DNA of 64,000 nt from a bacterium (GCA_043812655.1 JBDRLW010000003.1:21125-85124); one strand, 5' to 3'; shown: positions 12,674 to 27,050, counted from the first letter of the stretch. Notes: generated by a model not told the origin, from the letters alone. Program-made: numbers and translations.

Positions 12674-13189
12674 TTATGGCTCGATCCTAAACATTATCTG
12701 TCGATCATTAACAATATGATCTGTAATAAATCCGACGTTCTTAAATAGTTTCTGCGAAGCTAGATTATCAACATCGACCCCCGCCTCTATTTTCTTCAGT
12801 TTTAATGAGAAAAACGCATAATTAATAACCTCTTTTAATGCTTCAGACGCATAACCCTTCCCCCAATATGCCTTGTCCCCGATCGCAATGCCAACCGTGC
12901 CAAACCCATTCTCCCGATCGATTGATGAAAACGTTATATTTCCGATATGCTTCTCGTTAGTTTTGTCAAAAACACCAAGTAGCAACCGCTCCTTAACCCC
13001 TTCATAGGATCGGACATAGGCTTGCACCATATCAATATCTTGTCTTATATCCTTAACCGATAGGAAGTGATTGACCTCAGGATCATTCAACCAATCGACA
13101 TAGCGTTGTGTAACATCAACAACCTTTAACGGCCTAAGATTGACTCTATTGCCGCTTATCATCTTATGCGGCATCCCTATAATATTCAT
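12674..13189 (-). CDS. GNAT family N-acyltransferase
   Basis: 171 aa. GNAT motif A-like 'VGIAIGDKAYWGKGYASEALKEVINYAF'. Confidence 0.6.
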   Translation of the reverse strand: MNIIGMPHKMISGNRVNLRPLKVVDVTQRYVDWLNDPEVNHFLSVKDIRQDIDMVQAYVRSYEGVKERLLLGVFDKTNEKHIGNITFSSIDRENGFGTVGIAIGDKAYWGKGYASEALKEVINYAFFSLKLKKIEAGVDVDNLASQKLFKNVGFITDHIVNDRQIMFRIEP

Positions 13190-13685
13190 GCGCCAACATG
13201 CTAATTATGATCGTATCCATATATTTGCCATCCCAAAAAGTCGCTTCTCTCATAATTCCTTCCTGAATAAAACCACATTTTAATGCGAGCTTAACCGCCC
13301 CCTCATTAAAAGCAAAAGCTTCCCCCCAAAGGCGGTGTAAATTATATTCACCAAACCCCTTCCTCTTAAAAAAATCATAGATTTCAATCCCTAAAGCAAC
13401 ATCTTCGGTAGGACTAATTGATTGACCAAGATAATACGAAATTTCCGCAGAACGATCTTTCCAATTAATATGCGTTAAGCCACAGAGCCCAACCGGCTTT
13501 TCATCCATCAGAATCAGGAACATGTCATCCACCTTAGAAGTAGAAACCCTTTCAAACCAGTTATTTTGGTTGACCATATTAAGAAGCCTATATTCGCGAC
13601 AATACTTCCTAACCTTTTCTTGATTCCTCCAATCTCTTAGTAATGGAAGGTCCTCCCTTTCCATTTGCCGATACTTAATATCCAT
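13164..13685 (-). CDS. GNAT family N-acyltransferase
   Basis: 173 aa, GNAT fold. 'IEIYDFFKRKGFGEYNLHRL' is motif-A-like. Overlaps the downstream GNAT gene, consistent with an operon. Confidence 0.55.
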   Translation of the reverse strand: MDIKYRQMEREDLPLLRDWRNQEKVRKYCREYRLLNMVNQNNWFERVSTSKVDDMFLILMDEKPVGLCGLTHINWKDRSAEISYYLGQSISPTEDVALGIEIYDFFKRKGFGEYNLHRLWGEAFAFNEGAVKLALKCGFIQEGIMREATFWDGKYMDTIIISMLAHEYYRDAA

Positions 13686-13705
13686 TTCATCCTCCTTTAA
13701 AATAA

Positions 13706-14404
13706 TTACAAACCGCCATCAATGGCTATTTTCGCTCCGTTGACATAAGGAGATCTGATTAAAAAATCAATTGCATTAACGATATTTGAGACTTTCCCAA
13801 ATGATTTTGACGGAATCTTATCTAAGATACTCTTTTGGTCATTTTCACTTAGCGTTTCAATTAAACCAACATCAAAATAACCCAACACCAACAAATTCGA
13901 AGTAATATTAAAACGCGCATATTCCTTTGCTAGGACACGTGACATACCAATCAGCCCAGTTTTAGTTGTGGAGTATGCAATGGTGCCTATCCGTCCCTCC
14001 ATGCCTACAACGGAAGAAACATGAACAATACGTCCCCAGCGTTCGTTAATCATAATAGGAAGCAAGGCCTTGGTCAGTAAAAAATCACCTTTTAAATTAG
14101 TTGCTAGCACTTTATCCCAATCAAGCTCGGAGTAATTAGCCGCCAATGCATCAATACTAGACGCTGCCAAATTAATTAAAGTAACTTTTTTTAGCTCACT
14201 TCTACGCTTCTCCACAAATGCATTTATAGCCGTAGAGTCAGTGATATCTAATTTTTCAATTGAAAACCCGTTCATCGCAATCACTTTTGGCTTGGTTTTA
14301 TTGTAAATCCCAATAACCTGATCCATTGCCAATAATTTGCTCAAGATTTCTTTTCCGATTCCACCAGACACACCGGTTAGAATGATCATTGATTTTCTCC
14401 CCAC
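13706..14404 (-). CDS. SDR family oxidoreductase, 3-oxoacyl-ACP reductase (FabG)-like
   Basis: 'ILTGVSGGIGKEI' matches TGxxxGIG. Catalytic 'YSTTKTGLIGMSRVLAKE' matches YxxxK. Confidence 0.65.
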   Translation of the reverse strand: MGRKSMIILTGVSGGIGKEILSKLLAMDQVIGIYNKTKPKVIAMNGFSIEKLDITDSTAINAFVEKRRSELKKVTLINLAASSIDALAANYSELDWDKVLATNLKGDFLLTKALLPIMINERWGRIVHVSSVVGMEGRIGTIAYSTTKTGLIGMSRVLAKEYARFNITSNLLVLGYFDVGLIETLSENDQKSILDKIPSKSFGKVSNIVNAIDFLIRSPYVNGAKIAIDGGL

Positions 14405-15351
14405 TTAATCAAACAACCGCCCCAAGACAAGCCTACTCCAAACCCAATTAACATAACTTGATCCCCCTTTTTTAGACGCTTCTGTTCGGCGGCATCCTTA
14501 AGGGCGATCGGAATTGAAGCGGAAACAGTATTACCAACCTTTTGACAATTGATAAAGACTTTTTCTTCTGGCAGCTGTAGTCGACGAATAATATTTTCCA
14601 TAACAAGCTTGCTGGCTTGGTGAAAAACAAATAAATCAATATCTTCAATGGTTTTCCCGGCTTTTTCTAATAAAGAATTAACACACTTGGGGACCCTATC
14701 CATAGTAAACATAAAGACCTTCGCCCCGTCCATGACCAACTTATCCCCTTCCTCTTTTCTAGCCCCGCTTGATGGAACAATTAAGCTACTAAAGCCAGAG
14801 CCGTCAGTCCCCAACTCAAAGGGGCCAAGCAAGTCAGCTTTGCTCTGGGCTAACACGATTGCGGCTCCTCCATCACTAAATAATGGTCGACAGGTTCGAT
14901 CTGATTTATCAATATATTTTGTATAAGTTTCACTGCAAACGATCAACCCTTTCCTTGCTATTCCGGCCTCTAGCATCGAACCACCAATGGCCAGAGCGTA
15001 AACAAAACCTGAGCAACCAAGATTGACGTCAAAAGCAGCACAATCCTTTTTAATCCCCAGACGATCCTGCAGAATACAAGCTGAAGTTGGCAAGGCATAG
15101 TCAGGTGATTGCGTAACCATAATAATAAAATCAATATCATGCCTTGAATGAACAGATGAAAACAACTTTTCCGACGCAATTAATGCCAGATCAACAGCTG
15201 TTTGCCCTGGCTCAGCTATATGACGGACATAAACACCTGTTTTCTTCTCAATATCATCAATCCGCCAATCCGGATTATCATTTTTAAGAACCTTCCCATC
15301 CTCAGTTTTTTCAGGAAGATAGTATTCAATTGCCTGTATCTCAACTTTCAT
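14386..15351 (-). CDS. 3-oxoacyl-ACP synthase III (KAS III, FabH-like)
   Basis: Active-site Cys context 'DVNLGCSGFVYAL' and 'FVFHQAS' (His). Asn region in 'GNTVSASIPIAL'. Length 321 aa. Confidence 0.7.
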   Translation of the reverse strand: MKVEIQAIEYYLPEKTEDGKVLKNDNPDWRIDDIEKKTGVYVRHIAEPGQTAVDLALIASEKLFSSVHSRHDIDFIIMVTQSPDYALPTSACILQDRLGIKKDCAAFDVNLGCSGFVYALAIGGSMLEAGIARKGLIVCSETYTKYIDKSDRTCRPLFSDGGAAIVLAQSKADLLGPFELGTDGSGFSSLIVPSSGARKEEGDKLVMDGAKVFMFTMDRVPKCVNSLLEKAGKTIEDIDLFVFHQASKLVMENIIRRLQLPEEKVFINCQKVGNTVSASIPIALKDAAEQKRLKKGDQVMLIGFGVGLSWGGCLIKWGENQ

Positions 15352-15371
15352 TATTGCCTACTTATAAATAT

Positions 15372-15617
15372 TTATATTAAGCTATTATCTTTCAAGATGT
15401 GCATAATCCCCTTAACCGAATTGGCCGTCGCCATCTCTTTTATTGCTGCGATCTTTCCATCAAAAAGCTCATCTAATGATGAAAGAATCGCCAAATGCCC
15501 TAAAGAATCCCATTCTTCCAACCCTCCGACCATGCTATCTAACGTCAATTTTTTACCTTTGAGGCTCAATGCCTTTTCCATCGCCGCTAACACTTCACTC
15601 TCTGTTTTATTTACCAT
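15372..15617 (-). CDS. acyl carrier protein-like (phosphopantetheine attachment)
   Basis: 81 aa acidic helical protein. 'LTLDSMVGGLEE' resembles the ACP DSL/DSM Ser attachment motif. Confidence 0.5.
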   Translation of the reverse strand: MVNKTESEVLAAMEKALSLKGKKLTLDSMVGGLEEWDSLGHLAILSSLDELFDGKIAAIKEMATANSVKGIMHILKDNSLI

Positions 15618-15635
15618 AACAAACCTCCTTATAAT

Positions 15636-16361
15636 CTAACTATTATAGGCAACATAAATATCAGTAAAACAAAGGACCAGGCCAAACTTCTCTGTAAATT
15701 GGACATATCCCCTTTGTTGCAGCGCTTTTAATGCCCCAAGATGTTCGCTCATCTCTTTGGGGAGCGGCCATACATCATGGGCTAAACGTTCAACATGTGA
15801 AAAATGATCGTTAGCAACTTTAACGATTTTATCTACATCAGAAAAGGAAATAATCGGGAAAAATAATCGGCCACCATGATTAAGATACTTTGCTGCTTGT
15901 TGAATTACTTGAACGATAAGAAATGTTCCATCCGCCCCAGCAACACAAGGAACATTGTTGAACCAAGGGGAAATTTTTGCCGCTTCTTCAGAAACCCCAG
16001 AAATATCATCAACAATGCAATCAAATTTTTCATCACTCCACGGCTCAAAAAGAGATCCGGCTCTTGCCTCCACAGGACAATTATACTTTTTAGCATTGAG
16101 ATTGACTGATTCAACCGCTTTTTCGCTCAGATCTGACGCATAGAGGGATCCTTCTATTAAGCCTAGTTTATGCAACGCTATTCCAACCGCGCCACAACCA
16201 CACCCAAGGTCAACCGTTTTTCCAGGGCTTTTAACATATCCCTTTACAGCCTTAACTAAACTTTGGCTAGTTCCAGTTGGAACAAATACTCCTGCCGGCA
16301 CATTTAACAATAATTCTTCGGATGGTCCATACTTAAAAGTATAGGAAGCCTGTTCTAGCAT
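15636..16361 (-). CDS. class I SAM-dependent methyltransferase
   Basis: SAM motif I 'VDLGCGCGAVGIAL'. Motif post-I acidic 'YASDLS'. Confidence 0.5.
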   Translation of the reverse strand: MLEQASYTFKYGPSEELLLNVPAGVFVPTGTSQSLVKAVKGYVKSPGKTVDLGCGCGAVGIALHKLGLIEGSLYASDLSEKAVESVNLNAKKYNCPVEARAGSLFEPWSDEKFDCIVDDISGVSEEAAKISPWFNNVPCVAGADGTFLIVQVIQQAAKYLNHGGRLFFPIISFSDVDKIVKVANDHFSHVERLAHDVWPLPKEMSEHLGALKALQQRGYVQFTEKFGLVLCFTDIYVAYNS

Positions 16362-16373
16362 ATTAATTCCCCC

Positions 16374-17402
16374 TCATATTGATTTCCAAGTTATCCACTC
16401 ATCAGCCTTAATGGATCTTTTTGTTTTTTTACCGACAACTTTATCAAAATATTTCGGCTGAATACCAAAACTTGGTCTTTTAACAATCAGCATTTCATCT
16501 TTAATAATTGTCCCTTTCGGGATTTCTGTTTTAGCGTGGATACTGCGGCGACCAATTTGATAATTCTCCATCTCACAAGCTCTTGGGCCAAGTTTTTTAC
16601 CTGACCCAATCGCTGCTTCAACCTCACGGATTTGGCTTACAAGCGCTTTTAATTCTTTCGGCTCAACAGCAAAGGGATGATCGGGCCCCTCCATCTTTTT
16701 ATCAAGCGTAAAATGCTTTTCGATTACTTTCGCTCCCATCGCAACGGCGGCAACAGAGATATGAATTCCCAAGGTATGATCTGATAAACCAGAAATAACA
16801 CCAAGAGAACCGCTAATATTCTTCATTGCGGATAAATTCATAATTTCGGCCTTTGCCGGATAAGCGGAAGCGCACTGCAGGAAAATAACTTTCTTATTCC
16901 CTGCGTTAATACAGGTTGAATAGGCATCTTTAATTTCTTGCATTTTTGCTAGACCGGTAGATATGATTATTGGTTTTTTTTTCTTTGCAATAAATTTGAT
17001 CAAGGGAATATCAACCAACTCAAAAGAGGCGATTTTATATAGATCCACGTATGGAGCTAGTTCATCAACCGCCTCCGCGTCAAAAGGAGTGGCAAAGAAC
17101 GTTACATTCTTTTTATTGCAATAGGCTTTAAGCTCAGGAATCCATTTACGCGGCAGTTCAATGTCTTTTATCATTCTCCATAAGTCTTTTTTGTAATAAG
17201 AATGACGTGGGACATTTTTAGAATACAGCTTTTCAGCTGAATAAATCTGAAACTTAACCGCATTTGCACCAGCCTCTGCTGCTTTATCGATCAGCTTTTT
17301 TGCAGTTCTTAAGCTCTTGTTATGATTTGCCCCAATATCTACAATAATAAAGCATGGATCGTCCCCGCCAATCATAATGTTTCCAACTTTAATTCTGTTC
17401 AT
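16374..17402 (-). CDS. N-acylneuraminate-9-phosphate/nonulosonic acid synthase family (NeuB/PseI/LegI-like) with C-terminal SAF domain
   Basis: 'IGGDDPCFIIVDIGANHNKSLRTAKKLIDKAAEAGANAVKFQIY' matches the NeuB N-terminal TIM-barrel signature. The C-terminal 'SAF'-like region has the 'IKDEML' pattern. Confidence 0.75.
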   Translation of the reverse strand: MNRIKVGNIMIGGDDPCFIIVDIGANHNKSLRTAKKLIDKAAEAGANAVKFQIYSAEKLYSKNVPRHSYYKKDLWRMIKDIELPRKWIPELKAYCNKKNVTFFATPFDAEAVDELAPYVDLYKIASFELVDIPLIKFIAKKKKPIIISTGLAKMQEIKDAYSTCINAGNKKVIFLQCASAYPAKAEIMNLSAMKNISGSLGVISGLSDHTLGIHISVAAVAMGAKVIEKHFTLDKKMEGPDHPFAVEPKELKALVSQIREVEAAIGSGKKLGPRACEMENYQIGRRSIHAKTEIPKGTIIKDEMLIVKRPSFGIQPKYFDKVVGKKTKRSIKADEWITWKSI

Positions 17403-17410
17403 GTTTGTCG

Positions 17411-18721
17411 TTAATCCAACCTCTTAAACCCTGCATGGCAAACCGGCCCCTTTAAACTAGACTCCACCTTAGCCGACTGAATGGCACTGGCTATAACAGC
17501 AAATGCTTCATCCACTGCAAAAAGATACTTATCTACAATCTCCGGCGAATGGGCAAAGGACGCGTAGAAAGAATTTGTCGCTAGGCACCCTTTTTCAAGC
17601 ATAATTTGGGTAAATAAGGTTTTTATGGCCAGAGCATTATCGTATTTGAACGAAAAATGACCCAATGGTGGAATTCCTTCAACAGAGATGATAATTCGAT
17701 GTTTTTTCGCCAAGTTGTCCCATCCCGCTTGGACCATTTTTCCAATCTTGATCAAATGCGCCGGCACATTTTCTTTTTGCATTTTCGCAATTGTTGCCAG
17801 AGCGGCCACCGGCCCAATTCTTTCTGTCCAGTATGTACTACTAATAAAGCTCTCCTGGGCCACCTGCATTACTGATTTTTTACCTATTATGGCGGCCATC
17901 GGAAATCCGTTACTGATCCCTTTGGCAAATACTGCGATATCCGGCTCAAACCCATATTTTAAATGTGCACCACCAACATTTAACCGCCAACCAGAACTTA
18001 CTTCGTCACAAATCATCACGATCCCCAGCTCCTTGGTTGTTTTTCTAATCGTTTCAATAAAACCAGGCTTCGGTTCATGATTCCTAACGGCTTCGGTAAC
18101 AACACCGGCAATTCTTCCCTTATATTTATTTAGGAGTGCCAAATATTCTTCTGTGTCATTGTAAATAAATGGTTTCGCTGTTCCCTTTAATCCTCTAGGT
18201 ACCCCTTTTGGGGAAAGCCCTGGCATTAAATGTCCGTCTAAGGCCGCATCATCCGCTAAGTTTGATGATAAGTACCAATCATGCCAACCGTGGTATCCTG
18301 AAAATAAGATAACATCCTTGTCAGCGGCCGCTCGAGCAATCCTGACCGCAATGCTCATCGCCTCTCCACCGGTTCGGGAATATCTAACCATCTCCGCCCA
18401 AGGATGTAATTCACATAAAAGTTCAGCTAACTCAACGTCTTCATAGCAATTTAAAGTTGTAGATGACCCTTTTGCAATAGCCTGAGTTACTGCGGCATTA
18501 ACATCGTCATCCGAATAACCCAAGATACTAGCGCCTACTCCCATAAAACTCATATCAATATATTTTTCACCATCAAGATCCCAAATCTCACACCCTTTTG
18601 CTTTTTCATAGTACGCAGGCCAGAGGTCGGGCAGATGCATCTCTGGTCTTTTTGATAAAAGTTGGGTTCCTCCAGGGATAATTGTCTTTGCTTTGTTATA
18701 TAAGTCTTGTGAAATCCCCAC
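17411..18721 (-). CDS. class III PLP-dependent aminotransferase (glutamate-1-semialdehyde aminomutase-like)
   Basis: 436 aa. 'GGTQLLSKRPE', 'RYSRTGGEAMSIAVRIARA' and 'CDEVSSGWR' are HemL/class-III-like motifs. Confidence 0.7.
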   Translation of the reverse strand: MGISQDLYNKAKTIIPGGTQLLSKRPEMHLPDLWPAYYEKAKGCEIWDLDGEKYIDMSFMGVGASILGYSDDDVNAAVTQAIAKGSSTTLNCYEDVELAELLCELHPWAEMVRYSRTGGEAMSIAVRIARAAADKDVILFSGYHGWHDWYLSSNLADDAALDGHLMPGLSPKGVPRGLKGTAKPFIYNDTEEYLALLNKYKGRIAGVVTEAVRNHEPKPGFIETIRKTTKELGIVMICDEVSSGWRLNVGGAHLKYGFEPDIAVFAKGISNGFPMAAIIGKKSVMQVAQESFISSTYWTERIGPVAALATIAKMQKENVPAHLIKIGKMVQAGWDNLAKKHRIIISVEGIPPLGHFSFKYDNALAIKTLFTQIMLEKGCLATNSFYASFAHSPEIVDKYLFAVDEAFAVIASAIQSAKVESSLKGPVCHAGFKRLD

Positions 18722-18723
18722 TA

Positions 18724-19653
18724 TTAGTTCCCCACCTTTGTTGCCATGCCTAGTTTTTCCTTATAGATGTCAATTAGGTGCTGGTAAATAAGATCTACTC
18801 TCTCATGTTGGAATGCTACAAAACTTAAATTTAATTTTTCGATTTTTTCCAGATCACCAATCGATTGACGAATTTCCTGAAAATTATTCAGACTATCAAC
18901 GCCAATAATGACTTTATCTACATATTTATTAAGTAAAACAAAATTAATACATAAAGCCACTTTTGAGATGTGTTCTTGGGTAGAAAGCCGGCTAAGCTCT
19001 TCCACCTTATCCTTAATGGCAATCAAGGGACCGGTAAATTCAGCCTGATTACGAAAAGCAATCCCTTGCAGGAAAACCGACCGCACATTGATCTCAATGC
19101 CTAAACCATGTAATTTCTCAAAATATGGCCCAAATCGCTGATCAAACACACTATAAGGGACCTGAACAATATCTAAATTAATGCCTTGTTCAAGAAGTAC
19201 ATCAAGCTCATCCGGCGAATAAATCGATAAACCAATTTTTTTTATCCTCCCTAGCTTTCTTAACTCTACAAGCTGCGGCCATAATCCCGGATTATCGATA
19301 TGATATTGATAATTATGGATCAAATAACCATAAAACGAATCAACCCCCAATGTATCTAGTGAAGTTTGAATTATCGCTTTAACTTCAGTAGCAGAAACGT
19401 TACCAGCTTTTGAGATAATACTAAAATATTTTTTATTAGCTTTAATATATTTTCCAATAACAGCCTCGCTCTCCCCATATAGGGCAGCCGTATCAAGCGT
19501 ATTTACCCCGGCTTGGGCTGCCACATCTAATATTTTAAAAACATCATCAATCGGGACTTTTCCCCGTTGATTATTAATCCCATAATCAAATCCAAATTGG
19601 GCGGTTCCTAAAGTTATCCTATTCATTACTTCCATATCCGCCCATGCCCCCAA
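18724..19653 (-). CDS. aldo/keto reductase
   Basis: 'LGTAQFGFDYG', 'LDTAALYGESE' and 'KIGLSIYSPDEL' are AKR signature regions. Confidence 0.65.
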   Translation of the reverse strand: MGAWADMEVMNRITLGTAQFGFDYGINNQRGKVPIDDVFKILDVAAQAGVNTLDTAALYGESEAVIGKYIKANKKYFSIISKAGNVSATEVKAIIQTSLDTLGVDSFYGYLIHNYQYHIDNPGLWPQLVELRKLGRIKKIGLSIYSPDELDVLLEQGINLDIVQVPYSVFDQRFGPYFEKLHGLGIEINVRSVFLQGIAFRNQAEFTGPLIAIKDKVEELSRLSTQEHISKVALCINFVLLNKYVDKVIIGVDSLNNFQEIRQSIGDLEKIEKLNLSFVAFQHERVDLIYQHLIDIYKEKLGMATKVGN

Positions 19654-20390
19654 TCCACCCCAATCTCTTCTACGGGTTTGCGAAGTTGCTTGTTTTTATC
19701 CCAATAATCAATAATTTCTTCGAGCTTAATCAGTCGATCCTTCCCCTTTAAGTCCCTATAGATGTAGCGACAAAACACTAAGTCTTCTGGGTAATCTACG
19801 GTTATCCGAATATCCGATCTTCTTAATTTTGATTCCGGACTTACCATCAAAACCTTAAAATCATCCTGATTATCAAAGATATAGGAGGTAATTAATTCTT
19901 TGTTGCGCTGTGTTCCATTCTTGTGGGATTTTTGCATCGATCCAAGGTCCATAATTGCAAAACTCGCCCCGTCAGGAAGCTCAGAAATGCTAGATAAGTG
20001 TAGCTTATCTTCAACGAACTTGGCAAATAACTCGTCGATTCGATCGTAATATAAATATGGGGATTCGGTTGAGTCAAGCAAGGCAACCTCAGTTCCAAAT
20101 TTTTTAGCCGCCTCAATAATCCTGCCAAGCATGTCTTCTTCACTGCCAAACATATAGTTCCATCCCTGTTTTTCGGCTAATTCGGCAAACCCATAATTTT
20201 GCTTCCCTTCTGCAATGGCTAGGCAGATTGAATCAACACTCTTAATCTGCTTAATGTGTTTAACTAGGTATTCAAGAATTGTTATCCTATTTTCAATGTC
20301 TAGAAATTGTAGGGGTTTCCCATACAAACGGGTTCCGCCCACCCGGCAAGGTAAAATAGCATCAAATTTAATGTTCTTCATTTTTTCCAT
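19626..20390 (-). CDS. cytidylyltransferase, acylneuraminate cytidylyltransferase family (SpsF/PseF/NeuA-like)
   Basis: N-terminal 'AILPCRVGGTRLYGKPL' matches the nucleotide-binding motif of SpsF/NeuA-type CMP-sugar synthetases. Length 254 aa. Confidence 0.55.
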   Translation of the reverse strand: MEKMKNIKFDAILPCRVGGTRLYGKPLQFLDIENRITILEYLVKHIKQIKSVDSICLAIAEGKQNYGFAELAEKQGWNYMFGSEEDMLGRIIEAAKKFGTEVALLDSTESPYLYYDRIDELFAKFVEDKLHLSSISELPDGASFAIMDLGSMQKSHKNGTQRNKELITSYIFDNQDDFKVLMVSPESKLRRSDIRITVDYPEDLVFCRYIYRDLKGKDRLIKLEEIIDYWDKNKQLRKPVEEIGVDWGHGRIWK

Positions 20391-20399
20391 TTATGAAAG

Positions 20400-21188
20400 T
20401 TAAAACAAGCTTTTTGAGATGCCTCCATCGATCTGGATCGTCGTTCCTGTTATACCACAAGCCTGTTCAGAGCATAAAAATGTAACCAAATCACCCAATT
20501 CTTTTGGTTCCTGGTATCTCCTTAGAGGTAGATCCTTTACCGCATTCTTTTCAAATTCTTCGACCGTAATATTTTGTTTTTTTGCCGCATTAGTCATTAG
20601 CTCAATTGCCCTGTCAGTTTTAAAAGCACCCGGACATATATTATTAATTGTAATATTATCTTTGATCAATTCCCTAGATAGAGATTTCGCCATACTAATA
20701 ACCCCAGTTCTAAAAACGTTTGAGAGGATTAGAGTTTCGGCTGGTTCTTTAACCGTTAGCGAGGTGGAATTTATAATTCTCCCCCATTTATTCTCCTTCA
20801 TCACCGGAATTACCAGGCGACACAGCCGAACAACATACATCAATAATGAATTAAAGGCTTTTTCCCACTCCTCATTCTTAAGATCAAAAAAGCTTCCTGG
20901 AGGTGGACCACCCGAATTATTCACTAATATATCAATTCGGCCAAACTTATTAAGGGTTTCCTTTACGATTCGCTCGTTATCAGTTTGCGATGACATATCT
21001 GCTTCTAAAGCTAAAACACTTACCCCAAGATCAGCCAGCTCTTTTCTGGTTGTATCTAGCGAGGGACGGTCATTTGCACAAATCGCTATGGCCACTCCTT
21101 CCTTGGCAAGTTGAAGAGCACACCCTTTACCCAAGCCCTTACTCGCTCCCCCAATTAACGCAACTCTGCCTTTTAATTTTAGATCCAT
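20400..21188 (-). CDS. SDR family oxidoreductase
   Basis: 'GRVALIGGASKGLGKG', 'NNSG' and a YxxxK region are classical SDR features. Confidence 0.65.
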   Translation of the reverse strand: MDLKLKGRVALIGGASKGLGKGCALQLAKEGVAIAICANDRPSLDTTRKELADLGVSVLALEADMSSQTDNERIVKETLNKFGRIDILVNNSGGPPPGSFFDLKNEEWEKAFNSLLMYVVRLCRLVIPVMKENKWGRIINSTSLTVKEPAETLILSNVFRTGVISMAKSLSRELIKDNITINNICPGAFKTDRAIELMTNAAKKQNITVEEFEKNAVKDLPLRRYQEPKELGDLVTFLCSEQACGITGTTIQIDGGISKSLF

Positions 21189-21190
21189 AA

Positions 21191-22207
21191 TTATTTACTC
21201 CTTAAGTCAGATGGCTTGATCTCTTCATCGCAATTAATATCTTGTAATGCAATTCGGCCGATAAGCTCCATAAACCTTAAAGGCTCAAGGCCAGTCCCCG
21301 GTCGTTTAAATTCAAGATCGCTCCGCTCAATCGCTTTCCCCTTAGGTATCTTTTTTGCAGCAACGATACTTCTACGCATAATCGAGCGATCAATCATTTC
21401 TCCAGGTGCTAACACCTTATTTTTAATATTCATACTTTCCTTCATTTTAACGGCTAAGCCAACGGCCTGCTTCATTTCCTCCGGCTCAAGACATACGTGC
21501 CAATCAGGTCCTTTTTCAGCGCGGGATAAAGCAATATGCTTGGAAACAATATCGGCTCCGGCAGCTACTGCAGCCGCCGGTCCCCAAATCGCGGAGGTAT
21601 GGTCAATATATCCGGCCGGGAGAGCATATTGCTCTTTAATCGCCGAAAGATAACCTAAAGAAGTATGTTCAATCTCAACCCCATGTTCACCGCTTGCCAT
21701 CGTATGTTGGCCATGCAACAGTGCAAATTCCGCCTTACCTAGGGTTCTTATCCGATTTAAAGCCCATTCAACTTCAGTCACATTAGCTAATGGTAGACTA
21801 AGGAAAAAGGGCAAGCCACTATCACGAACAGCATCGATCATATCTGGGTTGGTCAAATCGGATGCATTAATATTAAAGCCTGAGCAACCAGCTTTAGCCA
21901 ACGGCTCTACTAGTTTATGACTTAAAGTCGTTGCAATAAAGCCTAATCCCTTATTTTGCGCAGCTGCAATCAAGTCCCGATGCTGTTCGTCAGAAAATTC
22001 ACGCCCCAAATATAGTACATAGCCAGGGTTACTCTTTACATAAAAATCCCCTGCACGGGCTAATTGAAACTCAATCGCATCTGCTCCGGTCTTAGCAACG
22101 ACATCGACCATAGCCAAGGCTCTTGTAAAGTCTCCAAGATTTGCCTGACCTTCCTCTATCATAAAAAAAAGCTTATCGGCACCTATCTGTTTGTCCCCTA
22201 TTTGCAT
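21191..22207 (-). CDS. second NeuB-family nonulosonic acid synthase paralog (TIM barrel plus C-terminal SAF domain)
   Basis: 'GADKLFFMIEEGQANLGDFTRALAMVDVVAKTGADAIEFQL' is a NeuB-like N-terminus. The C-terminal SAF-like 'IAAKKIPKGKAIERSDLEFKRP' is present. Confidence 0.65.
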   Translation of the reverse strand: MQIGDKQIGADKLFFMIEEGQANLGDFTRALAMVDVVAKTGADAIEFQLARAGDFYVKSNPGYVLYLGREFSDEQHRDLIAAAQNKGLGFIATTLSHKLVEPLAKAGCSGFNINASDLTNPDMIDAVRDSGLPFFLSLPLANVTEVEWALNRIRTLGKAEFALLHGQHTMASGEHGVEIEHTSLGYLSAIKEQYALPAGYIDHTSAIWGPAAAVAAGADIVSKHIALSRAEKGPDWHVCLEPEEMKQAVGLAVKMKESMNIKNKVLAPGEMIDRSIMRRSIVAAKKIPKGKAIERSDLEFKRPGTGLEPLRFMELIGRIALQDINCDEEIKPSDLRSK

Positions 22208-23331
22208 CTAACCACCTTGTTAATTACCTCAATCACCCTAGCAATATCTTTATCGCTCATTTTCGGGAACATCGGGATGGAGAGCGCTTTTCCGTAGAAA
22301 TCTTCCGCCCTGGGGCATAAACCGGAAGTATATCCCAGTTTCTGATAATAAGGTTGAAGATAAACGGGAATATAGTGGACATTAACGATGATGTCGGCCG
22401 CCCGTAATTCGTTAAAAATTCGCTGTCGGTCCTTGACTATTAAAACATACAGATGATAGGCAGATCTTGCCTGCGCAGACTCATTAATAACGGTGATCCC
22501 AGCATTATGACTAAACGCTTCATTGTATATTAAAGCAATCTCTCGACGGCGGTCGACAAATTCATCCAATTTCGCTAGCTGACTAATCCCTAAAGCGCAC
22601 TGGAGATCACTCAGCCGGTAATTTAAACCCAACTCATTCATCTCATAGTACCAGACCCCGTCATTTTTTGTTAAGTATTTGTCATCCCGTGTTATGCCAT
22701 GAGACCTGAATAATTTCAATTTCTCGTATAATTCTTCATTATTAGTCAAGACCATCCCCCCCTCACCAGTCGTAATGTGCTTTACAGCATGAAAACTCAA
22801 GATCGTCATGTCAGAATATTTACATGAGCCGATCTTACTCGCTTTGTATTCCGCCCCCAGTGCGTGCGCTGCGTCTTCGATCACAATCAAATTATTAGCC
22901 CGAGCGATGGCCCAAATCTCTTCGAGATCGCACGGATTTCCCGCAAAGTGGATAGGAATAATGGCTTTTGTTCTGGCAGTTATTTTCTTCTGTATTTCTT
23001 GAGGATCGATATTAATGGCGTCGCCCTGGACATCGGCAAAGACCGGCCGGGCACCGCAATACATAACGCAATTAGCTGAAGCAACAAACGTTATGGGGGA
23101 AGTAATGACCTCGTCACCGGCGGTGATCCCAGCCGCTAAACAAGCAATATGCAAGGCCGAAGTGCCGCTGTTAACCGCGACCCCATATTTTGCGCCGCAA
23201 TATTCAGCAACTTTTGATTCGAACTCATTTACCAGGGGTCCCTGTGTGAGATTAGCCGACTTTAAAGCGGCCACGACCGCTTCAATATCATCATCGTCAA
23301 TCCACTGCGTGGCATAGGGTATCTTATCCAA
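22198..23331 (-). CDS. DegT/DnrJ/EryC1/StrS family PLP-dependent sugar aminotransferase (PseC/ArnB-like)
   Basis: 'AVNSGTSALHIA', 'DAAHALGA' and 'LSFHAVKHITTGEGG' (PLP-Lys region) are typical of DegT-family enzymes. Confidence 0.75.
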   Translation of the reverse strand: MDKIPYATQWIDDDDIEAVVAALKSANLTQGPLVNEFESKVAEYCGAKYGVAVNSGTSALHIACLAAGITAGDEVITSPITFVASANCVMYCGARPVFADVQGDAINIDPQEIQKKITARTKAIIPIHFAGNPCDLEEIWAIARANNLIVIEDAAHALGAEYKASKIGSCKYSDMTILSFHAVKHITTGEGGMVLTNNEELYEKLKLFRSHGITRDDKYLTKNDGVWYYEMNELGLNYRLSDLQCALGISQLAKLDEFVDRRREIALIYNEAFSHNAGITVINESAQARSAYHLYVLIVKDRQRIFNELRAADIIVNVHYIPVYLQPYYQKLGYTSGLCPRAEDFYGKALSIPMFPKMSDKDIARVIEVINKVVRCK

Positions 23332-23333
23332 GT

Positions 23334-24320
23334 TTAAGCCCCTATCATTTTATTGAGTTGCGGTATCGTAAGCCATTCATTGTTCGTGTCACTACTGTAA
23401 TAAAAATCCGCCTTGACCTTTTTACCCCGGGGATGATTGTTTGAGTCCCACCAGTTAAAGTCAGGTTCAATCACAAAACAATCATCAAGCTCTACCGTGT
23501 GCCTGGCGTCATCGGCCGAGATCATCACTTCGTGAAGCTTTTCACCCGCCCGGATGCCAATGAAGTTAACTTTACAATCAGGAGCGACGGCCTTTTTAAG
23601 GTCCATTATGTTCATGCTCGGAATCTTGGGAACAAAAACCTCTCCGCCGTGCATCCTCTCAAAATTCTTCAGTACAAACCTGACCCCCAGTTCCAGTGTT
23701 ATCCAAAACCGCGTCATCCGCTTATCGGTTATCGGGATAACCCCTTCTTTCATTTTCTCTCTAAAAAATGGAACCACACTCCCCCTGCTGCCTACTACAT
23801 TCCCATATCTAACAACCGCAAACCTGGTTCCTTGCAATCCCGAATATGAATTAGCGGCGGTAAATAATTTGTCAGAACAAAGCTTTGTCGCTCCGTAAAG
23901 GTTCACTGGATTACAAGCTTTATCAGTACTTAAGGCTATGACCTTTTTCACTTTGTGCTGCAGTGCCGTTTCGATAATGTTCATTGCTCCTAATACATTG
24001 GTTTTAATCGCTTCCGAGGGATTGTATTCCATAGAAGGGACGATCTTTAATGCGGCAGCATGAACAACATAATCAACCCCCGACATAGCTAAAGAAAGTC
24101 GTTCTTTATCCCGCACGTCTCCAATAAAAAATCGAACATTTTTGTCTTTTTCATAACCTTGCTGCATTTCAAATTGTTTCATCTCATCGCGGCTATAAAT
24201 AATTAGTTTTTTGGGCTTATATTCTTTCAATACTATTTCTATAAGTTTTTTACCGAACGAACCAGTTCCTCCTGTCACCAGTACAACCGCACCATCAAAA
24301 CAACCTTGCTTTTTATTCAT
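23334..24320 (-). CDS. UDP-N-acetylglucosamine 4,6-dehydratase (PseB/FlaA1/CapD short form)
   Basis: 'VLVTGGTGSFGKKL' Rossmann motif and 'YGATKLCSDKLF' (YxxxK). Length about 328 aa fits the PseB/FlaA1 family. Confidence 0.75.
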   Translation of the reverse strand: MNKKQGCFDGAVVLVTGGTGSFGKKLIEIVLKEYKPKKLIIYSRDEMKQFEMQQGYEKDKNVRFFIGDVRDKERLSLAMSGVDYVVHAAALKIVPSMEYNPSEAIKTNVLGAMNIIETALQHKVKKVIALSTDKACNPVNLYGATKLCSDKLFTAANSYSGLQGTRFAVVRYGNVVGSRGSVVPFFREKMKEGVIPITDKRMTRFWITLELGVRFVLKNFERMHGGEVFVPKIPSMNIMDLKKAVAPDCKVNFIGIRAGEKLHEVMISADDARHTVELDDCFVIEPDFNWWDSNNHPRGKKVKADFYYSSDTNNEWLTIPQLNKMIGA

Positions 24321-24605: not shown

Positions 24606-25514
24606 CTAATTGGCGGCTATCTTATGCCAATATTCTTGAATAAATAAGAAGAACACGCCAGCAAATAATCCGAGCGCCACCCCGATCATCACATTCAATT
24701 TAGTCCGTGGCCTACTCTTCGACTCTGGTTTTTCAGCTTTATCAACTACGGAAAAAGGTGGGATTTCTTTTGAAGCCTCAAGCTTGTTAGATTCCTTTTC
24801 CCGGCGCAACATAGTGTAAATAGAATTATATATCTCATAATCTCTTTGCAACCCACTTTGCCCCCCACCGAGAGGACTCCCTACAGAAGATAGCGGAACT
24901 AATTTCAATTTATCTTCAACTACTTTTAAATCCTTCTCCACTCGTGGCAACTCCTGTTCAATATATTTAAGTTTTTTTTGAGTTTCGGTAAAATTAAGCT
25001 CATTCCAATAATACTCTATAGCACTAATAAAACCATCGGCAACATCGGCCGCCAGCTGCGGTTCATTCGCTTCAACCTTAAGCTCTAAGATATTCCCATT
25101 CATTTTTGGCGGTTTCAGCATCCCTCTAACCGCTAAAACCAGATTTTTCCTTTTAAGTTTTGGGTTATCCCACCCTTTTATTCTTTTGGTTAGATCAAGA
25201 TCGTCAAGCACCTTAGCCGCTACTACTTTACTTTTTAAAAGTTCCGTAATGTCTCCCGCTCCTCCTCCTCCTCCTCCTCCTAAATTGACACCCAGCATGC
25301 TAGCCATCCCAGCATATTGCGATAAATTCCCGCCACCGCCCGAGCGGAATAAAAGAGTCGTTTTAGCTTCATAAACCAGCGGCTGCCTAAAGCTATAAAA
25401 TAAAGCCGCAATCGCAACAAATAATGTTACAAGCGCGATCGTTTTCCATTTTTTTAATATTACTTCAAGATATTCCCGCAAGTCAATTTCGTCGTCGTAA
25501 GATTCATTTGTCAT
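24606..25514 (-). CDS. wzz: polysaccharide chain-length determinant (Wzz/PCP family) with internal poly-Gly tract
   Basis: N-terminal 'REYLEVILKKWKTIALVTLFVAIAALFYSF' is a Wzz-like N-terminal TM segment. Central coiled region present. C-terminal TM 'IGVALGLFAGVFFLFI'. Confidence 0.6.
   Translation of the reverse strand: MTNESYDDEIDLREYLEVILKKWKTIALVTLFVAIAALFYSFRQPLVYEAKTTLLFRSGGGGNLSQYAGMASMLGVNLGGGGGGGAGDITELLKSKVVAAKVLDDLDLTKRIKGWDNPKLKRKNLVLAVRGMLKPPKMNGNILELKVEANEPQLAADVADGFISAIEYYWNELNFTETQKKLKYIEQELPRVEKDLKVVEDKLKLVPLSSVGSPLGGGQSGLQRDYEIYNSIYTMLRREKESNKLEASKEIPPFSVVDKAEKPESKSRPRTKLNVMIGVALGLFAGVFFLFIQEYWHKIAAN
25259..25283. repeat. (CCT)n trinucleotide tract encoding poly-Gly within wzz
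   Basis: 'tcctcctcctcctcctcctcct' read directly. It encodes the GGGGGGG run in the Wzz ORF. Confidence 0.7.
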
Positions 25515-25653: not shown

Positions 25654-26052
25654 TTAAGAACTGCGAGTCATGCCATCCTTGCGAACTCTAGATGTAAAAG
25701 CTTTGAGTTGGCGGAAAATGTTTTCCGCTTTACTTAAGTACAATTTATGGTCAGCATCAATAATGTATCCATCGTCCAATGCCGCGTCCAAACAAGCCAC
25801 CACTTCACCAACCGAAGTTAAAGCTGTATTGAGAAATCTGCTAAAATCAACATCCGAATATCTTTCCGATCCTTCGGCAATATTTAGTAGGATTGAGTCC
25901 ATGGCTCGCCATAATTGTGAAGTTAAACAATATTGTTCTTCTTTAGGGAATTTTTTCTTGCTTAATTGTTTTAATCCAACCCTAAATTCGCGAGCATCTT
26001 TGTATACCGGAAACTCTCTAAATCTAAATACGCTTATTGTTTTTTCGTTCAT
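25654..26052 (-). CDS. four-helix-bundle protein (23S rRNA intervening-sequence protein family, PF05635/TIGR02436-like)
   Basis: 'FPKEEQYCLTSQLWRAMDSILLNIAEGSERYS' matches the conserved family core (FPKEE...L.SQ.RRAa.Si..NIAEG). Confidence 0.7.
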   Translation of the reverse strand: MNEKTISVFRFREFPVYKDAREFRVGLKQLSKKKFPKEEQYCLTSQLWRAMDSILLNIAEGSERYSDVDFSRFLNTALTSVGEVVACLDAALDDGYIIDADHKLYLSKAENIFRQLKAFTSRVRKDGMTRSS

Positions 26053-26067
26053 AAGTTCATAAGTTTA

Positions 26068-27004: not shown

Positions 27005-27010
27005 TTTTTC

Positions 27011-27050
27011 AGTTCCTTCGTTCTTTGGTTCTTTAGTCCTTTGGTCTGTT
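27011..27050. repeat. right inverted repeat of the cassette (reverse complement of the AAGAAC-rich repeat)
   Basis: Its reverse complement 'gaacagaccaaaggactaaagaaccaaagaacgaaggaac' matches 25608-25650. Confidence 0.55.

What the first reader, a model, noticed from the sequence alone, without database searches (positions are those of the whole stretch)
16374..24320. Nonulosonic-acid pathway with two NeuB-family synthase paralogs and an unusual enzyme set
A PseB/CapD-type 4,6-dehydratase (23334-24320) and a DegT aminotransferase (22198-23331) are followed by two separate NeuB-family synthases (21191-22207 and 16374-17402). An SpsF/NeuA-like cytidylyltransferase, two SDRs, an aldo-keto reductase and a class-III (GSA-like) aminotransferase lie between them. 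Canonical Pse or Leg pathways need one synthase and have no AKR or class-III aminotransferase. No PseG-like UDP-sugar hydrolase or PseH-adjacent arrangement is evident. The locus may make two different ulosonic acids, or a further-modified one, for example with an extra amino or reduced group.
Basis: partly seen in the sequence, partly recalled or inferred. Interest (0 to 1): 0.65.

Follow-up and report, generated by a model that had tools for sequence, protein, structure and literature searches.

The report
Pseudaminic-acid operon with a tailoring cassette
This is a real surface-sugar operon that most likely makes one pseudaminic-acid-type nine-carbon sugar and then edits it; the apparent "second synthase" belongs to a widespread, uncharacterised enzyme family that has lost the residues needed to act as a synthase.

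Summary
They open a 24-gene minus-strand polysaccharide operon. PseB and PseC pass NCBI's curated equivalog cut-offs. NeuB2 (16374-17402) keeps every PEP, metal and sugar-binding residue, so I take it as the working synthase. NeuB1 (21191-22207) keeps the NeuB fold, the metal histidines and the acetamido-binding arginine. Its whole family has replaced the PEP-site residues K53, K129, S132 and S213 and the catalytic residue E234. NeuB1 never replaces a canonical synthase, and an SDR follows it in 15 of 17 loci. It occurs fused to the aldo-keto reductase or to a GNAT. The reductase, the SpsF-like cytidylyltransferase and the class-III aminotransferase form a widespread unit linked by gene fusions. 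The same parts occur in Aeromonas flagellin islands and the Legionella serogroup 6/12 LPS cluster. They also match the domain set of Acinetobacter EpaA/EpaB, which 8-epimerises pseudaminic acid. Best model: one Pse-type sugar is made, CMP-activated, then oxidised and aminated or epimerised, probably at C8. This is a new variant of a known kind. The chemistry of NeuB1/SDR and of the reductase/aminotransferase pair is inferred, not shown.

The parts
23334..24320 (-). PseB, the inverting UDP-GlcNAc 4,6-dehydratase; first gene of the operon
   Evidence: TIGR03589 521 bits (cut-off 408); Polysacc_synt_2 341 bits
22198..23331 (-). PseC, a DegT-type aminotransferase that makes UDP-4-amino-4,6-dideoxy-L-AltNAc
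   Evidence: TIGR03588 529 bits (cut-off 424)
21191..22207 (-). NeuB1: divergent NeuB-fold protein (TIM barrel plus SAF) with a remodelled donor site; probably not a PEP-dependent synthase
   Evidence: NeuB_NnaB 186 bits and PseI 134 bits, both far below cut-off. K53E, K129N, S132A, S213I and E234S, with H215, H236, E25, Q55, D247 and R314 kept. AlphaFold pLDDT 93, TM 0.83-0.84 to PseI and NeuB. The NeuB1 clade has 199/200 bootstrap support.
20400..21188 (-). SDR1: classical 262-aa SDR, the constant partner of NeuB1
   Evidence: adh_short_C2 165 bits. It directly follows NeuB1 in 15 of 17 loci. It is 60% identical to the SDR that follows the AKR::NeuB1 fusion in L026.
19626..20390 (-). SpsF-like cytidylyltransferase, the only one in the window; presumed CMP-nonulosonate synthetase
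   Evidence: CTP_transf_3 25 bits. PDB 6OEW cytidylyltransferase 33 bits, with the SpsF-type N-terminal motif. 64-69% identical to the same gene in L005 and L006. Nine NeuB1 loci have this type and no NeuA-type PseF.
18724..19653 (-). Aldo-keto reductase of the Pse-locus family
   Evidence: Aldo_ket_red 112 bits. 1522 representatives at E<=1e-30; fusions with CT, GNAT and NeuB1 exist. 42% identical to the L023 reductase, which sits in a PseB-PseC-AKR-CT-AT3-PseG locus.
17411..18721 (-). Class-III (GSA-aminomutase-like) PLP aminotransferase
   Evidence: Aminotran_3 139 bits; PRK06209 245 bits, below its cut-off of 486. More than 8000 homologues, 64-73% identical across phyla. CT::AT3 fusions exist. 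Catalytic Lys motif FAKGISNG.
16374..17402 (-). NeuB2: canonical nonulosonate synthase, Pse-related but just below both equivalog cut-offs
   Evidence: NeuB_NnaB 352 bits (cut-off 400) and PseI 312 bits (cut-off 340). 208 bits to both C. jejuni PseI 8H2C and B. subtilis SpsE 1VLI. Nearly all key residues present; position E25 is Asp. Forms a clade with L006 and L009 at 196/200, sister to the PseI type.
15636..16361 (-). HemK/MTS-type methyltransferase, part of the conserved acyl block
   Evidence: MTS 52 bits. The block MT-ACP-FabH-FabG-GNAT is conserved in L006 and L007.
15372..15617 (-). Small ACP-like protein
   Evidence: No Pfam hit, but it has a WDSL motif and is 53-54% identical to the ORF at the same position in L006 and L007.
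14386..15351 (-). FabH-like KAS III
   Evidence: PRK09352 287 bits (cut-off 249)
13706..14404 (-). FabG-like 3-oxoacyl-ACP reductase. Together with FabH and the ACP-like protein it is the likely source of a 3-hydroxybutyryl N-acyl group.
   Evidence: TIGR01830 167 bits, below cut-off; adh_short
13164..13685 (-). GNAT1, a PseH-like N-acyltransferase
   Evidence: TIGR03585 PseH 73.7 bits (cut-off 93.1)
12674..13189 (-). GNAT2, candidate acyltransferase for the amino group added by the tailoring enzymes
   Evidence: Acetyltransf_3 91 bits. Homologues sit next to AT3 in L003 and L004, are fused to NeuB1 in L005 and P0003, and follow the synthase in L026.
11129..12661 (-). Wzx-type flippase
   Evidence: Polysacc_synt 62 bits
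2081..3991 (-). PFTS-motif polysaccharide biosynthesis protein, candidate nonulosonate transferase
   Evidence: TIGR04417 124 bits (cut-off 100); a weak BFO_1060 match. A PFTS_polysacc gene also follows the synthase and GNAT in L026.
24606..25514 (-). Wzz chain-length determinant, upstream of the operon
   Evidence: Wzz 54 bits and GNVR 46 bits

Best explanation
The interval is the front half of one polysaccharide operon. It builds a single pseudaminic-acid-type nonulosonic acid and then tailors it.

Steps supported by curated models:
1. PseB and PseC convert UDP-GlcNAc to UDP-4-amino-4,6-dideoxy-L-AltNAc.

Steps inferred:
2. The PseH-like GNAT1 acylates N4, possibly with 3-hydroxybutyrate from the ACP/FabH/FabG block.
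3. UDP is removed by an enzyme I could not identify.
4. NeuB2, which keeps the PEP, metal and sugar ligands, condenses the hexose with PEP.
5. The SpsF-like cytidylyltransferase makes the CMP-sugar.
6. The aldo-keto reductase oxidises a side-chain hydroxyl, most likely C8 by analogy with the Epa and Ela systems. The class-III aminotransferase turns that ketone into an amine, and GNAT2 acylates it. The result would be a 5,7,8-triamino sugar like the one known chemically from Tenacibaculum maritimum.
7. NeuB1 and its partner SDR1 are not a second synthase. They form a PEP-independent tailoring pair. My preferred guess is that NeuB1 uses its retained metal site and acetamido-binding arginine to hold the alpha-acetamido-ketone and epimerise the neighbouring carbon. 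SDR1 would then set or reset the hydroxyl.
For: - PseB and PseC pass the equivalog cut-offs.
- NeuB2 has nearly all the key residues and is equally close to PseI and SpsE.
- NeuB1 has the signature K53E, K129N, S132A, S213I and E234S, with H215, H236, D247 and R314 kept. This holds in 17 of 17 locus copies and in roughly 104-118 of 120 database homologues. E25, E134 and E234 are the proposed catalytic residues, and R314 is reported as essential (PMC8208679).
- NeuB1 has the full NeuB fold and forms a separate clade at 199/200.
- In 16 of 17 loci a canonical synthase accompanies NeuB1, and where tested it is usually a bona fide PseI at 439-512 bits.
- NeuB1 is followed by SDR1 in 15 of 17 loci.
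- Gene fusions tie the parts together: AKR::NeuB1, GNAT::NeuB1, GNAT::AKR and AKR::CT, CT::AT3.
- Loci with AKR-CT-AT3 but no NeuB1 have a normal PseI-type synthase, and at least L023 and L022 have PseG. This suggests the trio acts after condensation.
- Functional precedent comes from genetics plus NMR of the capsule. EpaA (CT plus AKR) and EpaB (a 262-aa SDR) turn Pse5Ac7Ac into 8ePse5Ac7Ac (PMC12053666). ElaA is proposed to oxidise C8 of CMP-Leg and ElaC to reduce it (PMC13656337).
- Chemical precedent: a 5-acetamido-7-(3-hydroxybutyramido)-8-amino nonulosonic acid has been described (PMC3210612).
- Non-NeuA cytidylyltransferases are reported to serve Leg and Pse pathways, namely SpsF (PMC7439481, abstract only) and FlmC (PMC7591256).
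Against: - No enzyme here was assayed.
- The site of oxidation and amination (C8, C4 or elsewhere) is inferred only by analogy.
- I could not obtain the EpaA, EpaB or Ela sequences, so that resemblance rests on domain content alone.
- No UDP-sugar hydrolase (PseG) is present in the 64 kb, which leaves a gap in the pathway.
- NeuB2 is below the PseI cut-off and forms its own clade. Its substrate may therefore not be the standard hexose, which would fit tailoring before condensation.
- The aminotransferase family is 60-73% identical across very different loci. That is odd if its substrate carries variable N-acyl groups.
- Several NeuB1-SDR1 loci have no reductase or Gfo-type oxidase within 10 kb, so SDR1 would have to do both redox steps there.
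- I found no Tenacibaculum homologue among the top hits.
Confidence: 0.55

Rival explanations
1. One reading: both NeuB paralogues are working synthases, and the locus makes two different ulosonic acids. NeuB1 would use an unusual acceptor or donor.
For: Both ORFs are intact, with NeuB plus SAF domains. NeuB1 keeps the metal ligands, E25, D247 and R314. Some loci carry three NeuB paralogues and two cytidylyltransferases, for example L001. Conserved Arg69, Tyr56 and Tyr66 in a NeuB1-specific segment could in principle rebuild a donor site.
Against: The PEP ligands K53, K129, S132 and S213 and the catalytic E234 are replaced family-wide. There is only one cytidylyltransferase in the window. NeuB1 is the only NeuB-family gene in just one of 17 loci. 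Its fusions to a reductase and a GNAT point to tailoring steps.
Confidence: 0.12
2. An Epa-like 8-epimerisation only. SDR1, the cytidylyltransferase and the reductase convert CMP-Pse to CMP-8-epi-Pse. The aminotransferase and NeuB1 do something unrelated, such as making an N-acyl or amino-acid substituent.
For: The domain set is identical to EpaA plus EpaB: CTP_transf_3, Aldo_ket_red and a 262-aa adh_short_C2 SDR (PMC12053666). Vibrio B9-25K2 has a CT::AKR fusion plus a dehydrogenase and makes a PseAc2 variant of different configuration (PMC7371886).
Against: SDR1 tracks NeuB1, not the reductase. It occurs in at least seven loci that lack the reductase. Where a reductase-associated SDR exists (L013, B. 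thuringiensis plasmid) it is a different SDR, 26-27% identical. The aminotransferase is fused to the cytidylyltransferase in two lineages, so it works on the same sugar.
Confidence: 0.15
3. Tailoring happens before condensation. After UDP release, NeuB1 binds the open-chain 2-acetamido hexose. The reductase or SDR1 oxidises C5-OH, the aminotransferase aminates it and GNAT2 acetylates it. The unusual NeuB2 then condenses this triamino hexose with PEP.
For: NeuB2 is neither a bona fide PseI nor a NeuB, and it forms its own clade with L006 and L009, both of which have the aminotransferase next to it. NeuB-family proteins bind the open-chain aldehyde form. AKR::NeuB1 and GNAT::NeuB1 fusions exist.
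Against: Most loci with AKR-CT-AT3, or with NeuB1, have an ordinary PseI-type synthase. The fusions of reductase and aminotransferase to the cytidylyltransferase argue for work at the CMP-sugar stage. The proposed Ela mechanism acts on CMP-sugars (PMC13656337).
Confidence: 0.12
4. NeuB1 is a decaying or non-catalytic duplicate, perhaps a scaffold.
For: It has lost canonical catalytic and PEP residues.
Against: It is intact, with 53-69% identity across phyla. It has about 60 invariant positions, including new ones at the old active site (E46, N114, D117, H168). It has a confident full fold and fixed synteny with SDR1.
Confidence: 0.04

Closest known systems
Canonical CMP-pseudaminic acid pathway (PseB, PseC, PseH, PseG, PseI, PseF of Helicobacter and Campylobacter)
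   Same: PseB and PseC are equivalog-level matches. A PseH-like GNAT, a PseI-related synthase with the full active site, and a cytidylyltransferase are all present.
   Different: There is no PseG and no NeuA-type PseF in the window. The synthase is below the PseI cut-off. Five extra enzymes are inserted between pseC and the synthase: NeuB1, SDR1, the reductase, the class-III aminotransferase and an SpsF-type cytidylyltransferase.
EpaA/EpaB of Acinetobacter baumannii prophages (Pse5Ac7Ac to 8-epi-Pse5Ac7Ac; PMC12053666)
   Same: Same three domains: CTP_transf_3, Aldo_ket_red and a 262-aa adh_short_C2 SDR. They are encoded side by side and act on a Pse sugar.
   Different: Here the cytidylyltransferase and reductase are separate genes that overlap by 28 nt. 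The SDR is tied to NeuB1 rather than to the reductase, and an aminotransferase is added. I could not test sequence similarity to EpaA or EpaB.
ElaABC and AciA-E of A. baumannii KL49/KL12/KL73 (C8 and C7/C8 epimers of legionaminic acid; PMC13656337, PMC5595891)
   Same: Same logic: activate with CMP, oxidise C8, then reduce with a face-selective SDR.
   Different: The Ela oxidase is a Gfo/Idh/MocA protein, not an aldo-keto reductase. The substrate is a Leg-type sugar. There is no aminotransferase, and no NeuB-like protein is reported.
Aeromonas polar-flagellin glycosylation islands, group I (pseB-pseC-AKR-pseF-class III aminotransferase-pseG...pseI; PMC7874193), and the L. pneumophila serogroup 6/12 LPS cluster (PMC3694923)
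   Same: The same reductase, cytidylyltransferase and aminotransferase sit inside a Pse-type cluster. The gene order matches the metagenomic loci L023 and L025, which are 42%/70% and 31%/68% identical to the window's reductase and aminotransferase.
   Different: Those clusters have one synthase and usually PseG, and no NeuB1-SDR pair is described for them. The function of the extra genes is unknown there too.
N. meningitidis NeuB (1XUZ) and C. jejuni PseI (8H2C) synthases
   Same: NeuB1 has the same two-domain fold (TM 0.83-0.84), the two metal histidines, E25, Q55, D247 and R314.
   Different: NeuB1 has K53E, K129N, S132A, S213I and E234S, plus a rebuilt N184-Y186 loop (HGQHTMASGEHG). It is only 25-28% identical to the canonical enzymes.
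8-amino nonulosonic acid of the Tenacibaculum (Flexibacter) maritimum O-antigen (PMC3210612)
   Same: Its predicted chemistry matches this locus: a Pse-like manno-configured sugar carrying N-acetyl, N-3-hydroxybutyryl and an 8-amino group.
   Different: Only the chemical structure is known. I could not show that T. maritimum carries these genes.

Membership tests
CMP-pseudaminic acid pathway | PseB, the inverting UDP-GlcNAc 4,6-dehydratase | tested here: met
   TIGR03589 521 bits, cut-off 408
CMP-pseudaminic acid pathway | PseC aminotransferase | tested here: met
   TIGR03588 529 bits, cut-off 424
CMP-pseudaminic acid pathway | PseH N-acetyltransferase | tested here: inconclusive
   GNAT at 13164-13685 scores 73.7 bits against TIGR03585, cut-off 93.1
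CMP-pseudaminic acid pathway | PseG UDP-sugar hydrolase | tested here: not met
   No Pfam or NCBIfam hit in the locus. tblastn with eight PseG or PseG-like proteins finds nothing in the 64 kb at E<=0.1. It could lie elsewhere in the genome.
CMP-pseudaminic acid pathway | PseI synthase | tested here: inconclusive
   NeuB2 scores 312 bits against TIGR03586 (cut-off 340) and 352 bits against the NeuB model (cut-off 400). Nearly all catalytic residues are present, and it is the sister clade to the PseI type.
CMP-pseudaminic acid pathway | PseF (NeuA-type CMP-Pse synthetase) | tested here: not met
   No NeuA-type gene in the window. An SpsF-type cytidylyltransferase is present instead.
NeuB/PseI/LegI nonulosonate synthases (for NeuB1) | TIM barrel plus C-terminal SAF domain | tested here: met
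   Pfam NeuB 126 bits and SAF 35 bits. AlphaFold pLDDT 93; TM 0.83-0.84 to 8H2C and 1XUU.
NeuB/PseI/LegI nonulosonate synthases (for NeuB1) | Divalent-metal ligands H215 and H236, and the acetamido-binding R314 | tested here: met
   H203, H224 and R302 are invariant in the family
NeuB/PseI/LegI nonulosonate synthases (for NeuB1) | PEP-binding residues K53, K129, S132 and S213 | tested here: not met
   These positions are E, N, A and I in the window copy. The same classes of residue occur in 17 of 17 locus copies, and the canonical 'SDH' motif occurs in 0 of 120 homologues. The assignment of these residues to PEP binding is from my knowledge of the 1XUZ structure paper.
NeuB/PseI/LegI nonulosonate synthases (for NeuB1) | Catalytic glutamates E25, E134 and E234 (PMC8208679) | tested here: not met
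   E25 is kept, E134 is Asp and E234 is Ser/Thr (115 of 120)
NeuB/PseI/LegI nonulosonate synthases (for NeuB1) | Curated equivalog score | tested here: not met
   186 bits (cut-off 400) and 134 bits (cut-off 340)
Epa-type nonulosonate C8 epimerisation module | Cytidylyltransferase, aldo-keto reductase and adh_short_C2 SDR encoded together beside or with a Pse pathway | tested here: met
   Domains at 19626-20390, 18724-19653 and 20400-21188; description of EpaA/EpaB in PMC12053666
Epa-type nonulosonate C8 epimerisation module | Sequence homology to EpaA and EpaB themselves | not tested
There was no hit in the phage collection.
Epa-type nonulosonate C8 epimerisation module | Conversion of Pse to its 8-epimer | not testable with these tools
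   Needs NMR of the product
AKR-CT-class III aminotransferase add-on of Pse loci (Aeromonas group I type) | The three genes lie adjacent, inside a cluster with pseB, pseC and a synthase | tested here: met
   The window order is CT-AKR-AT3. L023 and L025 have PseB-PseC-AKR-CT-AT3, and their AT3 is 68-70% identical to the window's.

The most novel reading that the evidence does not exclude
NeuB1 would found a new enzyme class derived from nonulosonate synthases. It would be a metal-dependent, PEP-independent enzyme that recognises an alpha-acetamido carbonyl the way NeuB recognises ManNAc. Working with its partner SDR, and with the reductase to which it is sometimes fused, it would epimerise or otherwise rework the carbon next to a keto group on a (CMP-)nonulosonic acid. 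Together with the aminotransferase, this would yield a triamino sugar and/or a stereoisomer of pseudaminic acid that has not yet been described. It would be made by many uncultured phyla.
Probability: 0.25. Interest if true: 0.75.

Novelty: new variant of a known kind. Interest (0 to 1): 0.55.

Why it matters
Nonulosonic acids decorate capsules, O-antigens and flagella, and they shape immune recognition and phage sensitivity. The genes that create their many isomers and derivatives are known in only a few cases.

The reductase / cytidylyltransferase / aminotransferase trio seen here is among the most common unexplained additions to pseudaminic-acid loci. It also occurs in Aeromonas and Legionella pneumophila. 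A clear, testable model of oxidising and then aminating the CMP-sugar would therefore apply well beyond this metagenome-assembled genome.

The NeuB1 family shows that annotation as an 'N-acetylneuraminate synthase family protein' cannot be read as 'second sialic-acid synthase'. Counting NeuB genes overestimates sugar diversity and hides a probable new activity.

Tried and rejected
- A megablast of the interval against plasmids found no match.
- A protein search with the reductase against phage genomes, aimed at finding EpaA, found no match.
- A look-up of the window's own NeuB1 in the contig index found it is not on record. The source is known only as 'MAG: bacterium', on a contig of 111,579 bp.
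- Rfam finds only six tRNAs in the window.
- I searched for PseG, NeuA-type PseF, Gfo-type oxidase and the WbpG/HisH/HisF amidino genes in the window. All are absent, except for a weak HisH-like hit inside carA.
- I tried to link the locus to Tenacibaculum maritimum, the producer of an 8-amino sugar. The O-antigen paper gives no relevant gene detail. No Tenacibaculum protein appeared among the top 120 aminotransferase homologues, even with a Bacteroidota query.
- I looked for the protein family of AciC, a possible C7 epimerase, in the held papers and found nothing.
- I considered NeuB1 as a PseG substitute and rejected the idea, because five NeuB1 loci also carry a PseG or PseG-like gene.
- I considered SDR1 as the EpaB equivalent and judged it doubtful, because SDR1 follows NeuB1 and not the reductase.
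- The structure prediction gives no coordinates, so I could not inspect the active-site geometry.

Full report
**What is in the sequence.** The window comes from a metagenome-assembled genome. The NeuB1 and aminotransferase proteins are 100% identical to NCBI entries named 'MAG... [bacterium]' on a 111,579-bp contig.

From about 28 kb down to the left end, every real gene is on the minus strand and belongs to a polysaccharide locus:
- a Wza-like exporter (27162-27995);
- Wzz (24606-25514);
- after a 285-nt gap, 24 tightly packed ORFs from pseB to coordinate 133, with gaps of -28 to +42 nt.

To the right of 30 kb lie housekeeping genes (carAB, accAD, rho). The locus has a lower G+C content (0.36-0.42) than most of the rest of the window (0.44-0.51).

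There are three corrections:
- only one SDR lies between the two NeuB genes;
- a PseH-like GNAT exists downstream, at 13164-13685;
- the operon continues with a methyltransferase, an ACP-like protein (WDSL motif), FabH, FabG, two GNATs, Wzx, a split transketolase, an SDR::GT2 fusion and a PFTS-motif protein.

**The two NeuB paralogues are not equivalent.** NeuB2 (16374-17402) scores 352 bits against the NeuB model and 312 bits against the PseI model, just under both curated cut-offs. It is equally close to C. jejuni PseI and B. subtilis SpsE, at 208 bits each. It retains nearly every key residue of the N. meningitidis enzyme; only position E25 is Asp.

NeuB1 (21191-22207) scores only 186 and 134 bits. 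I aligned it to the 1XUU sequence as printed by HMMER and across 34 sequences. It keeps E25, Q55, S154, the metal ligands H215 and H236, D247 and R314. It has K53E, K129N, S132A, S213I and E234S, and a rebuilt loop in place of N184-Y186.

The same pattern holds in all 17 locus copies. Simple motif counts over the 120 best database homologues agree:
- K53 to E/D: 111 of 120;
- S213 to I/V: 118 of 120;
- the canonical 'SDH' motif: 0 of 120;
- E234 to S/T: 115 of 120;
- the K-R-P-G motif kept: 119 of 120.

E25, E134 and E234 are the proposed catalytic residues, and R314 is reported as essential (PMC8208679). The assignment of K53, K129, S132 and S213 to PEP binding is from my knowledge of the 1XUZ structure paper.

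NeuB1 is not decaying. Homologues are 53-69% identical across Omnitrophota, WOR-1, Deltaproteobacteria, Bacteroidota, Verrucomicrobiota and Clostridia. The AlphaFold model is confident (pLDDT 93) and superposes on PseI and NeuB at TM 0.83-0.84. In a neighbour-joining tree NeuB1 forms its own clade at 199/200. NeuB2 groups with its counterparts in L006 and L009 at 196/200, next to the PseI-type enzymes.

**Comparative context.** I compared 16 genome loci holding a NeuB1 relative, plus contexts fetched by protein identity.
- NeuB1 is immediately followed by SDR1 in 15 of 17 loci.
- An SpsF-like cytidylyltransferase is next to the pair in about ten.
- A canonical synthase is present in 16 of 17.
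- PseB and PseC are present in most.
- In six loci the canonical partners (seven proteins) are bona fide PseI, at 439-512 bits.
- L006, a WOR-1 MAG, is syntenic with the window from pseB to GNAT1 at 59-73% identity.
- Nine loci have only the SpsF-type cytidylyltransferase, three have only a NeuA-type PseF, and two have both. The SpsF-type enzyme can therefore serve as the CMP-sugar synthetase, and NeuB1-SDR1 does not depend on which type is present.

This fits B. subtilis SpsF in the sps legionaminic acid pathway (PMC7439481, abstract only). It also fits Caulobacter FlmC, a cytidylyltransferase-like protein unrelated to PseF that completed a six-enzyme Pse pathway in E. coli (PMC7591256).

**The reductase / cytidylyltransferase / aminotransferase unit.** The aminotransferase family is very large and unusually uniform. 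It has more than 8000 homologues, nearly all of 436 aa, that are 60-73% identical across bacterial phyla and an archaeon. The reductase family has 1522 representatives at E<=1e-30.

Homologues that lack NeuB1 sit in the order PseB-PseC-AKR-CT-AT3-PseG...GNAT...NeuB (L023, L025). That is the order reported for Aeromonas flagellin glycosylation islands of subgroup IA (PMC7874193). The same parts occur in three other places:
- the L. pneumophila serogroup 6/12 LPS cluster (PMC3694923);
- a Pseudosulfitobacter plasmid;
- a Vibrio Pse cluster (PMC7371886).

In L023, L025 and the plasmid the synthase is of the ordinary PseI type. This argues that the extra enzymes act after condensation.

Gene fusions link all the parts:
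- CT::AT3 in two lineages;
- AKR::CT, and CT::AKR in EpaA (PMC12053666);
- GNAT::AKR;
- AKR::NeuB1, in which the NeuB part carries the NeuB1 signature and is followed by SDR1, CT and AT3;
- GNAT::NeuB1.

**Mechanistic reading.** The only functional data for such parts come from Acinetobacter. EpaA (cytidylyltransferase plus aldo-keto reductase) together with EpaB (a 262-aa SDR) converts Pse5Ac7Ac to its 8-epimer, shown by genetics and NMR of the capsule (PMC12053666). In the Ela system, a cytidylyltransferase, a Gfo/Idh/MocA oxidase proposed to act on C8 of CMP-Leg, and an SDR that reduces the 8-ketone are required for the 8-epimer (PMC13656337).

By analogy I propose the following sequence, all of it inferred:
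1. The SpsF-like enzyme makes the CMP-sugar.
2. The reductase, running in the oxidative direction, makes the 8-ketone.
3. The class-III aminotransferase converts the ketone to an 8-amino group.
4. GNAT2 acylates the new amine.

A natural product of exactly this kind is known from Flexibacter (Tenacibaculum) maritimum: 5-acetamido-7-(3-hydroxybutyramido)-8-amino-3,5,7,8,9-pentadeoxynonulosonic acid (PMC3210612). The ACP/FabH/FabG/GNAT1 block of this operon would supply its 3-hydroxybutyryl group.

A further lead comes from A. hydrophila AH-1, whose island is of 'group I or III'. Its flagellin carries a Pse-like glycan of 403 Da, and some fragments are one mass unit off those of a di-N-acetyl Pse-type reference sugar from A. 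caviae (PMC4691044). An odd nominal mass implies an odd number of nitrogens. That is my inference, and I did not confirm the subgroup.

For NeuB1 the evidence excludes little beyond a classical synthase role. My preferred hypothesis starts from how NeuB holds its substrate. It holds the carbonyl on the metal and the neighbouring acetamido group on R314. An 8-keto-7-acetamido or 4-keto-5-acetamido nonulosonate presents the same motif. NeuB1 could therefore epimerise the adjacent carbon, with SDR1 doing the redox step or steps. This is untested.

**What remains open.**
- No PseG is present in the 64 kb.
- NeuB2 is not a textbook PseI, which keeps alive the rival in which tailoring precedes condensation.
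- I could not compare sequences with EpaA, EpaB or the Ela proteins.

**Verdict.** The finding is real. Its 'extra amino or reduced group' reading is the better supported one, and the 'two synthases' reading is not supported. The locus is a new variant of a known kind. It combines a widespread, known-but-unexplained add-on with a NeuB-derived family that I did not find described in the literature searched.

Noticed in passing
window 25654-28688 (-): Two AbiEii-type toxin genes (26068-26736 and 28044-28688), each followed by a small ORF, plus a 23S rRNA intervening-sequence protein (25654-26052), are wedged between the Wza-like exporter and wzz inside the polysaccharide locus.
   Followed up: no
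window 7796-9533 (-): A split transketolase pair (N-terminal TPP half at 8700-9533; pyrimidine and C-terminal half at 7796-8710) lies inside the sugar operon. This suggests a two-carbon transfer onto a sugar. I did not explain it.
   Followed up: no
window 5824-7809 (-): A 661-aa fusion of an NAD-dependent epimerase/dehydratase domain with a GT2 domain of the PgfS/ArnC type, which acts on polyprenyl phosphate.
   Followed up: no
window 2081-3991 (-); L026 15369-17070: A PFTS-motif protein (TIGR04417 124 bits) also follows the synthase and GNAT genes in L026. It is a candidate nonulosonate transferase.
   Followed up: partly
window 3991-4887 (-); L026 3981-6131; L005 3915-4772: An RmlD-like reductase recurs in these loci. 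It is fused to PseC in L026 and L027 (716 aa) and lies next to PseC in L005. Its role in a Pse pathway is unclear.
   Followed up: partly
L001/L002 (Deltaproteobacteria MAG) 3600-21000: This locus has three NeuB paralogues (one of NeuB1 type, one of NeuB2 type, one further divergent) and two cytidylyltransferases. It also has a class-III aminotransferase, a PseG-like gene, a formyltransferase and a PIG-L deacetylase in one block.
   Followed up: partly
L021 (B. thuringiensis plasmid p1) 6342-10717: A NeuB-like gene with an intermediate signature (K53T and S213C, with K129 and E234 kept) is paired with an SDR 41% identical to SDR1. A reductase plus a second SDR lie alongside, next to Pse genes. 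This is a cultured, tractable system.
   Followed up: partly
homologues of window 17411-18721: The class-III aminotransferase family is nearly fixed at 436 aa and is 60-73% identical across many bacterial phyla and an Aenigmatarchaeota MAG. That is unusually flat conservation for a polysaccharide-locus gene.
   Followed up: partly
window 1-30000 versus 30000-64000: The polysaccharide locus has a G+C content of 0.36-0.42, against 0.44-0.51 for most of the housekeeping part. This is consistent with horizontal acquisition.
   Followed up: no
window 41051-43396 (-): A 781-aa protein matches only the PEP-binding domain of PEP-utilising enzymes (108 bits), plus a faint HpcH/HpaI hit. It is not part of the sugar locus.
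   Followed up: no
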